64,000 nt of DNA, from the NCBI RefSeq assembly GCF_009914755.1, contig NC_060931.1. One strand, given 5' to 3'. The notes beneath the pieces were generated by a model. That model ran no database searches and had not been told where the DNA came from. It saw only the letters and a program-made list of their open reading frames with translations. This DNA is from the human T2T-CHM13v2.0 reference genome, Homo sapiens. Below, one piece after another: positions 26,028-42,402 of the stretch (positions within the stretch are counted from its first letter, which is position 1; every line of letters begins with the position of its first letter). Both the position numbers and the translations under genes were made by a program.

Positions 26028-26746
<719 letters not shown>

Positions 26747-39159: not shown

Positions 39160-39270
39160 AAGGTGACAGGTATGGAATTTTCAACTTGCATCAGGTCAGC
39201 GGCATTCAATAAGTTTTGGATTTTGGAACGGTTCAAATTTTGGATTTTTGGATTAGAGATGTTCAACCTG
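39160..39270 (-). mobile_element. Tigger4/MER46 (Zombi)-like fragment inserted at a TA inside Tigger7
   Basis: Minus strand TA|CAGGTTGAACATCTCTAATCCAAAAATCCAAAAT…GAAAATTCCATACCTG, the recalled Tigger4 terminus; other end not found. Confidence 0.7.
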
Positions 39271-39419
39271 TACATACATACCTACGATGAATTTTAATTT
39301 ATAAATTAGGCACAGTAAGAAATTAACAACAACAATAATAAAATAGAATATCAAGTACTGTAATGTTATGTGAATGTGATCTCTCTCTCTCTCAGTATAA
39401 CTTGTTGTAACGTACTTAC

Positions 39420-39900
39420 CCTTCTTCTTCTTCTTGTAATGATGTGAGAATCTATGCCTGAATCTGTGTAACCATCCCTTACTCGCAGTAAATGGCTTGG
39501 TGTCAGTTTCAGAGCATCCCTTGCAGAAGTCTTGGTATAGGCTCAAAGCTTTCTGGCGCAACATGTTGCTGTCAATGGGAACACGTTTTCTGTTCATCTC
39601 TTCCACCCACAAATGCAGTGCCTGTTCCATCTTAACTAAGCACTTATCACGCACTGTGGCCGTCACTTTAGCAGTTGGAGGTGAGACAGCAAAACTAGCA
39701 CGAATTTCTTTTTCCTTCTTCACAATTTCACGGATGGAAGATTCATTCTTCCCGTAGATCTTAGCAACCTCAGCATAGGATTTTTTGTCTTTCCTGATTA
39801 AGTCGAGAACTTTCACCTTTTCACTTAGAGGAAGCACTTTACGGCTTCTCTTTGGCCTATCCAAATTCCCAGCATCACTACTCTTGTGCTTTGGGGCCAT
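39420..39900 (-). CDS. Tigger7/MER44 transposase N-terminal DNA-binding region (two CENP-B-type HTH domains), candidate alternative first coding exon fused to GTF2IRD2
   Basis: Uninterrupted MAPKHKSSDAGN...LSEKVKVLDLIR...YAEVAKIYGKNESSIREI...MEQALHLW...FTASKGWLHRFRHR...KKKKKG; FxASxGWLxRF is the pogo/CENP-B HTH signature; Kozak ataATGG; ends at AAG G|GTAAGT in phase 1, in frame with exon 2. Confidence 0.75.
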
Positions 39901-40564
39901 TATGACGGAAAATAAGGGTGACTTGAACACATACACTGGGACACTGTGACGGTCGATCTGATAACCGAGCCAGCTACTAAGTGACTATGGGTGTGGAGCG
40001 TCCACAGCGTGGGGACGCTGAACAAAGGGGACGATTCACTGCCCAGGCTGCACAGCGCGAGATTTCATCACAGCGTGCAATTTAAAACTTACGAATTGTT
40101 TATTTCCGGAATTTTCCATGTAGTATTTTCAGACCACGGTTGACCTCAGGTAACTGAAACAGCGGGTAAGGGGGGACAACTGTACTTCCAGGTTCTGCAG
40201 CCTGAGAATGAGAGAAGGGACTGTGCAGGCTGAAGGCGTGGGGGAAGAGCCAGGGCCCTGGGGAGCAGACGTCAGGGACTAAACTGGAAGGCAAGCAGGA
40301 AGAACCGTGACCCACTCCAAACCGCCACTGAAGATTGATCCCAACTGCAAGCCGGTGCCAAGCCCCGCGTCCACGGAAGTCACACAGCCTATGACGCCTT
40401 CCTCTCCAAATGGAAGCAAAGAGGAGAAGAGGCTGCTGGAGTCTTCAATTGCAGCCGTGAGCAATCTCCAACTGGCCAGTTTCCAAGCTTATATCTAGAC
40501 ATCTGCTTACTTCAAATTACCAGCACGAAACTAAAACATGATTTTTTTTTCCTTAAAACACAAA

Positions 40565-41045
40565 GCTTGGCCCATCAATTCCAGTCCTTGGTATACACCT
40601 ATGAGAATTGAAAACAAATGTCCGCACAAAAACGTGTACACCAATGTTCATAGCAGTATTATTCATAACAGCCAAAAGGTGGAAATTACCCAAATAGCCA
40701 TCAATGGATGGAAAATCAAAATGCTGTGTATTCATATCATGGATTTTTATTCAGCCATAAAGAAGGAAAGAAGCCAGACACACAAAAAACTTCTTGGGAT
40801 GATTCTATCCACACAAAATGTCCAGAATAGGCAAATCCACGGAGACAAAAGTGATTGCCAGGGGCTGGGGATAGGGACGGGGTGGGGACCGGGGAATGAC
40901 GGCCTAATGGGGTTGGAGTTTCTTCTCCTCGGGTGCTGAAAGCGTTCTGCAATTAGTGGCAAAGGTTGCACAGCTCTGTGCACTGAATTATTCACTCTTA
41001 AAACGTGAATTTTACAATGGATCTCAACGAAGCTGTTATTAAGAA
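40565..41045 (+). mobile_element. L1MB-like 3' end
   Basis: caattcca.tcct.ggtat, aatgttcatagcag.attattcataa.agccaaaa, ttcagccataaa, ggcaaatcca, ggttgcaca.ctctgtg. Confidence 0.75.
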
Positions 41046-41239
41046 ACAAGAAAGCTTGGGCTTGAGGGATGGAGAATACAGCCTTGCGAGCCTTTTTCCC
41101 CCTAGAACTCGAAACCAGAATTGCAACGGGAAATTCCCGGGCCTCGGCCTTTTTCCTTGGGAGTCTGGATTGGTTTTCCGCCAACAAACAGATCCCCGGA
41201 GGCCGTCGCGAGGACCATACCCACGGACAAAACCCACAA

Positions 41240-42402
<1,163 letters not shown>

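What the first reader, a model, noticed from the sequence alone, without database searches (positions are those of the whole stretch)
39420..40201. Captured Tigger7 transposase DNA-binding exon is in frame with GTF2IRD2: predicted double-transposase fusion transcription factor
Seen: a sense-oriented Tigger7/MER44 element in intron 1 has 160 stop-free, frameshift-free codons from a strong Kozak ATG (ataATGG, 39900). They cover both CENP-B-type HTH domains and end at a consensus donor AAG G|GTAAGT (39420/39419). Exon 2 begins GGATCATG, so the junction reads G|GG ATC ATG, giving …[18 protein letters not shown]…, a 162-aa N-terminal extension. A pyrimidine-rich acceptor (tcccttctctcattctcAG|G, 40202/40201) lies just outside the TIR. 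Established: the GTF2IRD2 C-terminus derives from a Charlie8 hAT transposase, and transposase capture by splicing produced SETMAR and CSB-PGBD3. Inference: an isoform with pogo DBD + leucine zipper + I-repeats + hAT domain that could target TFII-I-family complexes to Tigger7/MER44 TIRs. A long isoform may already be annotated; I am not aware of a described function.
Basis: partly seen in the sequence, partly recalled or inferred. Interest (0 to 1): 0.9.

Follow-up and report, generated by a model that had tools for sequence, protein, structure and literature searches.

The report
Known Tigger7 DNA-binding exon of GTF2IRD2
An old Tigger7 transposon in GTF2IRD2 supplies an alternative first exon that adds a transposase DNA-binding domain to the protein; the sequence confirms this, but it was already published in 2018, and its function is still untested.

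Summary
On the minus strand, an ATG at 39900 opens 160 codons plus 1 nt. The exon ends at a consensus donor (39420|39419) and joins exon 2 (26691) in frame, adding 162 residues. The residues match both pogo/CENP-B HTH domains.

It is not chance. None of 37 other Tigger7 copies keeps the frame. Of 150 protein-level matches, only the three Williams-region copies span both domains without a stop.

It is not new. Dougherty et al. 2018 (PMC6169893) published the same model base for base. They also reported long-read counts, primate dN/dS of 0.019, and the equivalent GTF2I exon.

The exon is a first exon (TSS about 40433).

- Annotated GTF2I isoforms with this domain occur in bats, pig, rodents and rabbits. 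GTF2IRD2 isoforms with it appear only in primates and a colugo.
- The primate exons share one internal deletion.
- The GTF2I and GTF2IRD2 exons are far more alike than their flanks or exon 2, and marmoset shows the same. This indicates gene conversion.

Translation, DNA binding and MER44 targeting remain untested.

The parts
39420..39900 (-). Coding part of the Tigger7-derived first exon: ATG plus 160 codons plus 1 nt. It encodes the CENP-B_N and HTH_Tnp_Tc5 domains and a lysine-rich tail.
   Evidence: Identical in length to the CDS segment of the published model (481 nt).
39414..39419 (-). Splice donor GTAAGT (exon end AAG|GTAAGT). It belongs to the Tigger7 3' region rather than being a new mutation.
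   Evidence: The same GTRAGT site is intact in 4 of 7 other Tigger7 3' ends and in the GTF2I copy.
39447..39450 (-). Internal deletion junction of the element, at about ORF nt 452. It joins the DNA-binding region to the 3'-terminal region.
   Evidence: The 5' parts of other copies stop aligning at ORF nt 442-454. The 3' ends start aligning at 39450-39447. Among the 40 places scored, only the GTF2IRD2, GTF2IRD2B and GTF2I-upstream copies span the junction.
39901..40433 (-). 5' UTR of the published long-read model (start at 40433). It contains 3 upstream ATGs. The stop of the last uORF overlaps the main ATG (TAATGG).
   Evidence: The first exon is 1,014 nt, which places its start at 40433.
40434..40598 (-). 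Extra 5' stretch of the RefSeq exon 39420-40598. It contains 3 more upstream ATGs. An AG lies just upstream at 40600-40599, and the exon's 5' end lies in an interspersed repeat.
   Evidence: Hub annotation. Repeat hits to query 1178-1383 correspond to window 40773-40568.
40158..40184 (-). 5' terminal inverted repeat of the Tigger7 copy. The element starts at 40182 and is preceded by TA at 40184-40183.
   Evidence: Other copies align from query position 18 onward. No matching 3' terminal repeat exists elsewhere in the window at 5 or fewer substitutions in 25.
39268..39413 (-). Remnant of the Tigger7 3' region, now intronic. The element ends without a 3' terminal repeat. The 3' limit is approximate.
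40201..40203 (-). It is present in the sequence but not used in the published or RefSeq exon.
   Evidence: hub annotation.
26588..26691 (-). Exon 2. Its acceptor is CAG|GGATC, and the canonical ATG lies at 26686. The exon is entered in phase 1 from the Tigger7 exon.
   Evidence: In the published model it is fully coding.
41675..41913 (-). Canonical non-coding exon 1. It has no ATG and lies in a CpG island (about 41200-41999). The Tigger7 exon start is CpG-poor by contrast.
   Evidence: Hub annotation.

Best explanation
An internally deleted, 3'-truncated and immobile Tigger7 copy in GTF2IRD2 intron 1 serves as an alternative first exon.

Transcription starts in CpG-poor DNA just upstream of the element, near 40433. 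It runs through the Tigger7 5' UTR and the transposase start codon at 39900. The exon ends at a GTAAGT donor that the transposon itself carried in its 3' region, and it splices in phase 1 to exon 2.

The predicted product is the canonical protein preceded by 162 residues, about 1,111 aa by arithmetic from the recalled 949-aa canonical length. The added residues form a CENP-B-like bipartite helix-turn-helix DNA-binding domain without the DDE catalytic domain.

Shown here: the ORF, the frame, the splice signals, the domain matches, the exceptional intactness of the ORF, and the published RNA evidence.

Inferred:
- The protein is made.
- It binds DNA, most plausibly Tigger7/MER44-like terminal sequences.
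- The GTF2IRD2 exon descends from the older GTF2I exon and has since been kept like it by gene conversion.
For: Sequence anatomy.

Domains:
- Pfam, both matches above their gathering scores.
- CENP-B DNA-binding domain 1HLV is the top PDB match with the single sequence (E 1.7e-6, residues 20-151; the next rows have E 0.25 or worse). It is the only match with the profile (E 4.5e-9).

Published evidence, PMC6169893:
- The same exon and CDS.
- PacBio capture reads from brain, Tigger7 versus annotated first exon: GTF2IRD2 154 vs 14, GTF2IRD2B 251 vs 21, GTF2I 48 vs 261.
- GTEx cortex junction reads: 1 unique (97 multi-mapped) vs 4 (199).
- Primate dN/dS of 0.019, and a transposon-containing isoform that matches or exceeds the canonical form only in testis.

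Intactness: 0 of 37 and 0 of 147 other copies.

Selection on this lineage: against the majority base of the 37 copies, pS is 0.15-0.16 and pN is 0.034-0.048. That is 13 synonymous changes in 88 sites against 12 nonsynonymous in 350, Fisher p 2.5e-4.

The GTF2I copy (L003) has an intact 159-codon frame, a GTGAGT donor and the same phase into GTF2I exon 2.

Cross-species models carry the domain joined to MAQVA:
- GTF2I in chimpanzee, marmoset, bats, pig, beaver, naked mole-rat, ground squirrel, degu, hare and rabbit.
- GTF2IRD2B in apes, Old World monkeys, marmoset, lemurs and a colugo.
Against: - I saw no protein-level evidence: no mass spectrometry and no ribosome profiling.
- The 5' UTR holds 3 upstream ATGs in the long-read model and 6 in the RefSeq exon. 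These may reduce initiation at 39900.
- Usage is tissue-limited and method-dependent. ONT reads from GM12878 gave 0 of 102 for GTF2IRD2. Unique short-read junction counts are near zero because the paralogues are identical. The 92% share in capture PacBio contrasts with about one third in multi-mapped GTEx junction reads.
- The domain evolves faster than the TFII-I core. Non-primate GTF2I is 76-86% identical to chimpanzee in the domain but 94-99% in the next 300 residues.
- My crude omega of 0.23-0.30 is much higher than the published 0.019.
- The cross-species proteins are mostly automatic gene models.
Confidence: 0.8

Rival explanations
1. The exon is only an alternative non-coding leader or promoter. 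Ribosomes are captured by the upstream ATGs, or they scan on to the canonical ATG at 26686. On this view the Tigger7 ORF is not translated to any useful level.
For: The leader holds 3 to 6 upstream ATGs, and one uORF stop overlaps the main ATG. I saw no protein evidence. Usage is low or absent outside brain and testis.
Against: A 160-codon frame has stayed open in GTF2IRD2, GTF2IRD2B and GTF2I, while 0 of 37 and 0 of 147 other copies stayed open. Nonsynonymous change is lower than synonymous change, and the published dN/dS is 0.019. The frame is open in models from many mammals. The main ATG has A at -3 and G at +4, and the uORFs are short at 10 to 37 codons.
Confidence: 0.1
2. The domain is translated and useful but no longer recognises Tigger7/MER44 terminal repeats. 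It has drifted to another DNA target, or it serves as a nuclear-localisation or protein-interaction module.
For: The domain differs from the family majority at 12-17 nonsynonymous positions. It diverges quickly between orders, at 76-86% identity. Residue 126 is Cys in human GTF2IRD2 and GTF2IRD2B but Ser in human GTF2I and in the ape, monkey, marmoset and lemur models. Basic clusters sit at both ends of the domain.
Against: Thirty-four positions are invariant across a 20-sequence alignment that includes fish, spider, lizard and mammalian relatives. Both HTH domains align over their full length with the CENP-B DNA-binding domain. Nothing here tests specificity in either direction.
Confidence: 0.25
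3. The near-identity of the GTF2I and GTF2IRD2 Tigger7 exons reflects extreme constraint on the nucleotide sequence itself, not gene conversion.
For: The low-divergence tract coincides closely with the exon, from about -33 to the donor.
Against: Synonymous sites are not frozen on this lineage: pS is 0.15 against the family majority. Paralogue pS is 0.021 in the Tigger7 exon, against 0.36 in exon 2 and 20-25% in the flanks (Fisher p 6.7e-7 and 2.2e-5). The two marmoset paralogues are identical over 160 residues, yet each differs from its human orthologue at 12-13 residues.
Confidence: 0.1

Closest known systems
Tigger7-derived N-terminal isoform of GTF2IRD2, GTF2IRD2B and GTF2I (Dougherty et al. 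2018, Genome Res, PMC6169893)
   Same: It is the same object. The exon end, the 481-nt CDS, the 162 added residues, the two HTH domains and the Tigger7 origin all match. The paper also covers the GTF2I counterpart and purifying selection.
   Different: Nothing differs in substance. The passages I read speak of primates only. They do not mention the shared internal deletion, the non-primate GTF2I isoforms or paralogue homogenisation. I could not read the paper's Supplemental_Material.pdf or see Figure 7.
Host-transposase fusion genes such as SETMAR and CSB-PGBD3. The hAT/Charlie8 part of GTF2IRD2 itself belongs here too.
   Same: A transposase-derived domain is joined to host exons by splicing. 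The Cosby et al. preprint names GTF2IRD2, SETMAR and PGBD3-CSB as documented cases (one passage).
   Different: Here only the DNA-binding part is captured, at the N-terminus, through an alternative first exon and the transposon's own donor. By recall, SETMAR and CSB-PGBD3 capture a whole transposase as a 3' exon.
CENP-B and other pogo/Tigger-derived proteins (TIGD, JRK, POGK, POGZ; these names are recalled)
   Same: They share the bipartite CENP-B_N plus HTH_Tnp_Tc5 DNA-binding architecture. The sequence matches CENP-B 1HLV residues 4-130.
   Different: There is no DDE-derived domain in the exon. The domain is fused to an unrelated transcription-factor body. It derives from Tigger7 specifically: other copies are 73-83% identical at the DNA level.

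Membership tests
pogo/Tigger (CENP-B-like) transposase DNA-binding domain | N-terminal CENP-B_N / psq-type helix-turn-helix | tested here: met
   PF04218: 27.8 bits against a cut-off of 21.2, residues 17-70 covering profile positions 1-53 of 53.
pogo/Tigger (CENP-B-like) transposase DNA-binding domain | Second helix-turn-helix of the Tc5/pogo type (HTH_Tnp_Tc5) | tested here: met
   PF03221: 55.8 bits against a cut-off of 22.2, residues 91-158. The alignment to CENP-B 1HLV spans both domains.
pogo/Tigger (CENP-B-like) transposase DNA-binding domain | Three-dimensional fold of two three-helix bundles | not testable with these tools
   Structure prediction accepted no jobs. Only sequence-level matches are available.
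Autonomous pogo/Tigger transposase | DDE catalytic domain (DDE_1, PF03184) | tested here: not met
   Pfam reports no DDE match in the 160 residues. The element is internally deleted at about ORF nt 452. Related full-length proteins do carry PF03184.
Tigger7 / MER44 element copy | Terminal inverted repeats flanked by a TA target duplication | tested here: inconclusive
   The 5' end at 40182 is preceded by TA. No 3' terminal repeat was found in the window, so the copy is truncated. I had no repeat library, so the family name rests on PMC6169893 and on 73-83% DNA identity to 39 other scored places.
Host-transposase fusion gene | Transposase-derived exon spliced in frame to host coding exons, with transcript evidence | tested here: met
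   Transcript evidence comes from the paper's GTF and Table S8. I saw no raw reads myself.
Host-transposase fusion gene | Purifying selection and conservation of the fused ORF across species | tested here: met
   pN/pS is 0.23-0.30 against the family majority, p 2.5e-4. The frame is open in models from primates, a colugo, bats, pig, rodents and lagomorphs. The published dN/dS is 0.019.
Host-transposase fusion gene | Protein product and DNA-binding activity demonstrated | not testable with these tools
   No proteomic, ribosome-profiling or binding data were available. None appeared in the passages read.

The most novel reading that the evidence does not exclude
The Tigger7 DNA-binding exon was first captured by GTF2I in an early placental (at least boreoeutherian) ancestor. 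It was reshaped by an internal deletion, seen here in primate GTF2I and in primate and colugo GTF2IRD2 exons (I saw no colugo GTF2I model). It was then copied as a patch of about 0.7 kb into GTF2IRD2 intron 1. Since then, the two exons have been repeatedly homogenised by gene conversion, independently in the human and marmoset lineages. That pattern would mean selection keeps one shared DNA-binding specificity in two TFII-I family members. It would fit long isoforms acting together at Tigger7/MER44-derived sites, mainly in testis and brain.
Probability: 0.35. Interest if true: 0.6.

Novelty: already known. Interest (0 to 1): 0.3.

Why it matters
GTF2I and GTF2IRD2 lie in the Williams-Beuren region, and the paper links the family to social behaviour. 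A long isoform with an extra sequence-specific DNA-binding domain could give these factors a distinct set of genomic targets. The existence of the isoform is already in print, so this report mainly closes the finding as confirmed and known. What remains open and testable is whether the protein is made, what DNA it binds, and why its exon is kept nearly identical between GTF2I and GTF2IRD2.

Tried and rejected
- Structure prediction of the 160-residue domain was not possible. The tool accepted no jobs, nor after the stated wait. No fold search was therefore run.
- The first search for GTF2I exon 2 used 701 nt and was swamped by Alu matches. A 151-nt query found it.
- The region upstream of the element (40202-41950) has no GTF2I counterpart, only GTF2IRD2B and an interspersed repeat. 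The two genes therefore do not share a promoter region there.
- I rejected independent Tigger7 insertions at GTF2I and GTF2IRD2. Both copies share a deletion junction seen in no other of the 40 scored places. They also share derived bases in the flanks: 4 of 12 on the 5' side and 9 of 12 on the 3' side.
- I rejected a recent wholesale duplication of the 0.7-kb block, because the flanks inside the block are 20-25% diverged.
- Seven literature searches found no paper other than PMC6169893 that links GTF2IRD2 or GTF2I with Tigger7. The Science version of Cosby et al. and the preprint's supplements were not searchable.

Full report
**1. The observation**

I read the region on the minus strand.
- An ATG lies at 39900 in the context ATAATGG.
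- It opens 160 stop-free codons plus one nucleotide, ending at 39420.
- The next six bases are GTAAGT, so the boundary reads AAG|GTAAGT.
- If unspliced, the frame continues to 39253, giving a 215-aa ORF.

Exon 2 starts GGATCATGG at 26691, behind a CAG acceptor. The join reads G|GG ATC ATG. The product is 160 residues, then Gly-Ile, then the canonical Met: a 162-residue extension.

Domain matches:
- Pfam places HTH_Tnp_Tc5 at residues 91-158 (E 4.5e-15) and CENP-B_N at residues 17-70 (E 2e-6). Both are above their curated cut-offs.
- Against PDB sequences the best match is the CENP-B DNA-binding domain 1HLV. It aligns over residues 20-151 (E 1.7e-6).
- With a 20-sequence profile, 1HLV is the only match (E 4.5e-9).

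**2. Is it more than chance?**

The same genome holds many Tigger7-like copies. The DNA search gave 2,616 first-look candidates, of which 40 were scored. The three Williams-region places match at 95-100%; the other 39 scored places are 73-87% identical.

I fetched the 37 non-Williams loci and aligned each to the ORF.
- None keeps the frame over its aligned part.
- Together they carry 241 frameshifting indels or in-frame stops in 14,338 aligned nt.
- That is about 8 per 480 nt, so P(0) is about 3e-4.
- These were the best-scoring copies, so the comparison is conservative.

A protein-level search scored 150 of 2,883 candidates.
- Only the three Williams-region copies (GTF2IRD2, GTF2IRD2B, upstream of GTF2I) cover 150 or more residues without a stop.
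- Seventeen other matches are stop-free but cover at most 106 residues.

**3. Anatomy of the element**

- The copy begins at 40182 after a TA.
- Other copies stop aligning to its 5' half at ORF nt 442-454.
- Other Tigger7 3' ends start aligning at 39450-39447.
- The copy therefore has an internal deletion that joins the DNA-binding region directly to the 3'-terminal region.
- Of the 40 places scored, only the three Williams-region copies span that junction.
- The lysine-rich tail and the GTRAGT donor are family features of the Tigger7 3' region. The donor is intact in 4 of 7 other 3' ends examined. The transposon thus supplied both the ORF and the splice donor.
- No 3' terminal repeat is present in the window, and a different repeat and an Alu follow. 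The copy cannot move.

**4. Already in print**

Seven literature searches led to one relevant paper: Dougherty et al. 2018, Genome Research, PMC6169893. I read passages from it and parts of its supplements. I did not see Figure 7 or the supplementary PDF.

The paper reports:
- Conservation through primate evolution, with dN/dS of 0.019.
- The same phenomenon, at lower abundance, in GTF2I.

Its GTF file gives:
- First exon hg38 chr7:74849112-74850125 (1,014 nt).
- CDS 74849112-74849592 (481 nt).
- A fully coding 104-nt exon 2.

Mapped onto the window, that is 39420-40433 with the CDS at 39420-39900.

Read counts for the Tigger7 versus the annotated first exon (Table S8):

| Data set | GTF2IRD2 | GTF2IRD2B | GTF2I |
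|---|---|---|---|
| PacBio capture, brain | 154 vs 14 | 251 vs 21 | 48 vs 261 |
| ONT, GM12878 | 0 vs 102 (both paralogues pooled) | pooled with GTF2IRD2 | 6 vs 214 |
| GTEx cortex junctions, unique (multi-mapped) | 1 (97) vs 4 (199) | 0 (97) vs 16 (199) | 6 (0) vs 472 (10) |

The hub's annotation shows that RefSeq now has an exon at 39420-40598.

The Cosby et al. preprint cites GTF2IRD2 only as a transposase-capture case and does not mention Tigger in its main text. Its supplements were closed. I saw four other papers only as search listings: PMC3072357, PMC8028841, PMC8700633 and PMC10162687. PMC5753468 states that TIGGER7 mobilised MER44A-D (passage).

**5.

- The exon is a first exon. The published transcript runs uninterrupted through the proposed acceptor at 40201.
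- With the start at 40433, the leader has 3 upstream ATGs. With the RefSeq start at 40598, it has 6. All open short uORFs of 2 to 37 codons.
- The stop of the last uORF overlaps the main ATG as TAATGG.
- An AG at 40600-40599 behind a pyrimidine-rich stretch could make the RefSeq exon an internal exon. I could not see the transcript models.
- The canonical exon 1 has no ATG and lies in a CpG island. The Tigger7 exon start lies in CpG-poor DNA. I take this, by inference, to fit tissue-restricted use.

(a) *The GTF2I copy.* L003 lies about 7 kb upstream of the GTF2I gene start given by the hub.
- It has an intact 159-codon frame plus 1 nt, a GTGAGT donor, and the same phase into GTF2I exon 2.
- The published GTF2I_1 model has a 478-nt CDS and a 64-nt leader that starts inside the element.

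(b) *Paralogue divergence.* Homology between the two loci is limited to about 700 bp, window 40005-39304. Within that block:

| Segment | Difference between GTF2I and GTF2IRD2 copies |
|---|---|
| Tigger7 exon | 3 substitutions in 478 sites plus one AAG indel (pS 0.021, pN 0.0026) |
| 5' flank | 21 of 105 |
| 3' flank | 29 of 115, plus 16 gap columns |
| Exon 2 | pS 0.36, pN 0.086 |

- The exon differs from its flanks at p 1e-23 for all sites.
- For synonymous sites, p is 6.7e-7 against the flanks and 2.2e-5 against exon 2.
- The low-divergence tract starts about 33 nt before the ATG and ends at the donor.

(c) *Synonymous sites are not frozen on this lineage.*
- Against the majority base of the 37 copies, the ORF shows pS 0.15-0.16 and pN 0.034-0.048, a ratio of 0.23-0.30 with p 2.5e-4.
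- The element's own 5' UTR is about 8.5% diverged.
- Derived bases are shared by the two paralogues at 29 of 31 ORF sites, but at only 4 of 12 sites in the 5' flank and 9 of 12 in the 3' flank.

Protein-level selection alone cannot explain (b). Recent gene conversion limited to the conserved exon can.

(d) *Cross-species annotation.* The protein database includes NCBI and UniProt eukaryotic models. In the search with the 160 residues and lengths 'longer', 143 proteins passed E 1e-10 and 120 were listed.
- GTF2I isoforms with this domain joined by G-I/T to MAQVA are annotated in chimpanzee, marmoset, several bats, pig, beaver, naked mole-rat, ground squirrel, degu, hare and rabbit.
- In the non-primates, the Tigger7-derived part is longer (MAQVA at residues 186-250). 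It runs past the point where the primate exon is deleted, so the donor is different.
- GTF2IRD2 or GTF2IRD2B isoforms with the domain appear only in apes, Old World monkeys, marmoset, lemurs and a colugo. All have the deletion-type tail.
- In a second search across the junction (1,209 hits, 120 listed), GTF2IRD2 models from tree shrew, dugong, manatee, a bat, whales, pangolin and cats lack the domain.
- Absence from automatic models is weak evidence.

(e) *Concerted change at the protein level*:

| Comparison | Differences |
|---|---|
| Marmoset GTF2I vs marmoset GTF2IRD2B | 0 of 160 |
| Each marmoset protein vs its human orthologue | 12-13 |
| Human GTF2I vs human GTF2IRD2 | 1 |
| Chimpanzee GTF2I vs chimpanzee GTF2IRD2B | 2 |

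This assumes the two marmoset models come from two loci, which I could not verify.

(f) *The domain evolves faster than the TFII-I core.* Non-primate GTF2I is 76-86% identical to chimpanzee in the domain, against 94-99% over the next 300 residues. That rate and my omega of 0.23-0.30 sit uneasily with the published 0.019. I did not see which species that estimate used.

**7. Mechanism and rivals**

Best reading (confidence 0.8 for the transcript and coding architecture, lower for function):
- An alternative promoter just outside the element drives an exon whose ORF and donor both come from Tigger7.
- The product is the canonical GTF2IRD2 protein with an added CENP-B-like DNA-binding domain.
- That the protein is made, and that it binds Tigger7/MER44-like sequence, is inference. 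It rests on analogy with pogo transposases and CENP-B.

Rivals:
- A purely non-coding leader (0.1).
- A translated domain with altered specificity or another role (0.25).
- Nucleotide-level constraint rather than conversion as the cause of paralogue identity (0.1).

**8. Verdict**

The finding is already known from PMC6169893, and RefSeq now annotates the exon. The possibly new points are the wider mammalian distribution in GTF2I, the shared deletion in the primate and colugo exons, the likely secondary origin of the GTF2IRD2 exon, and its homogenisation with GTF2I. They are modest and rest partly on automatic gene models.

Noticed in passing
G000 places listed (chr9, 13, 14, 15, 21, 22, 1, 20, Y and others): More than 40 places match GTF2IRD2 exon 2 and its edges at 71-84% identity. 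Many lie at low coordinates on the acrocentric chromosomes (13, 14, 15, 21, 22). This looks like a dispersed GTF2I-derived duplicon.
   Followed up: no
P0062, P0065, P0066, P0112 (Equus) and P0051 (Loxodonta): Other predicted host fusions carry a Tigger7-like DNA-binding domain at 82-90% identity. Horse, Przewalski's horse and donkey models have a nucleoside diphosphate kinase domain; some are named nucleoside diphosphate kinase (A), others uncharacterized. An elephant ZNF404 isoform has KRAB, the DNA-binding domain and DDE.
   Followed up: no
P0001, P0037, P0068, P0087, P0089, P0100, P0101, P0104: Close relatives of this mammalian domain (66-81% identity) occur in an arowana fish, orb-weaver spiders, lizards and a marsupial. 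The arowana hit scores higher than the self-like hits (497 vs 340 bits). The pattern suggests horizontal spread of Tigger7-like elements.
   Followed up: no
window 39898-39902 (minus strand): The stop codon of the last upstream ORF overlaps the main start codon as TAATGG. This arrangement could couple termination to reinitiation. The GTF2I copy lacks that upstream ATG.
   Followed up: partly
L003:1426-1500: Directly upstream of the homologous block at GTF2I lies a Tigger7 terminal-repeat-like segment in inverted orientation. It is 82.5% identical to window 40163-40124 on the opposite strand. It may be a rearrangement or a second element.
   Followed up: no
window 39523-39525 (codon 126): Human GTF2IRD2 and GTF2IRD2B have Cys at residue 126. 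Human GTF2I and the chimpanzee, orangutan, baboon, macaque, marmoset and lemur models have Ser. This is a human-lineage change in the second HTH region. I do not know whether it is fixed or polymorphic.
   Followed up: partly
G000 chr2 places (about 87-113 Mb): About ten Tigger7 domain copies on chr2 match at 63-66% protein identity, seven of them with a single TGA at similar extents. They are presumably one copy spread by segmental duplication.
   Followed up: no
upstream of the window's GTF2IRD2 (STAG3L2): The paper reports an out-of-frame STAG3L2-GTF2IRD2 fusion transcript. It estimates this at 33% of GTF2IRD2 transcripts in brain.
   Followed up: no
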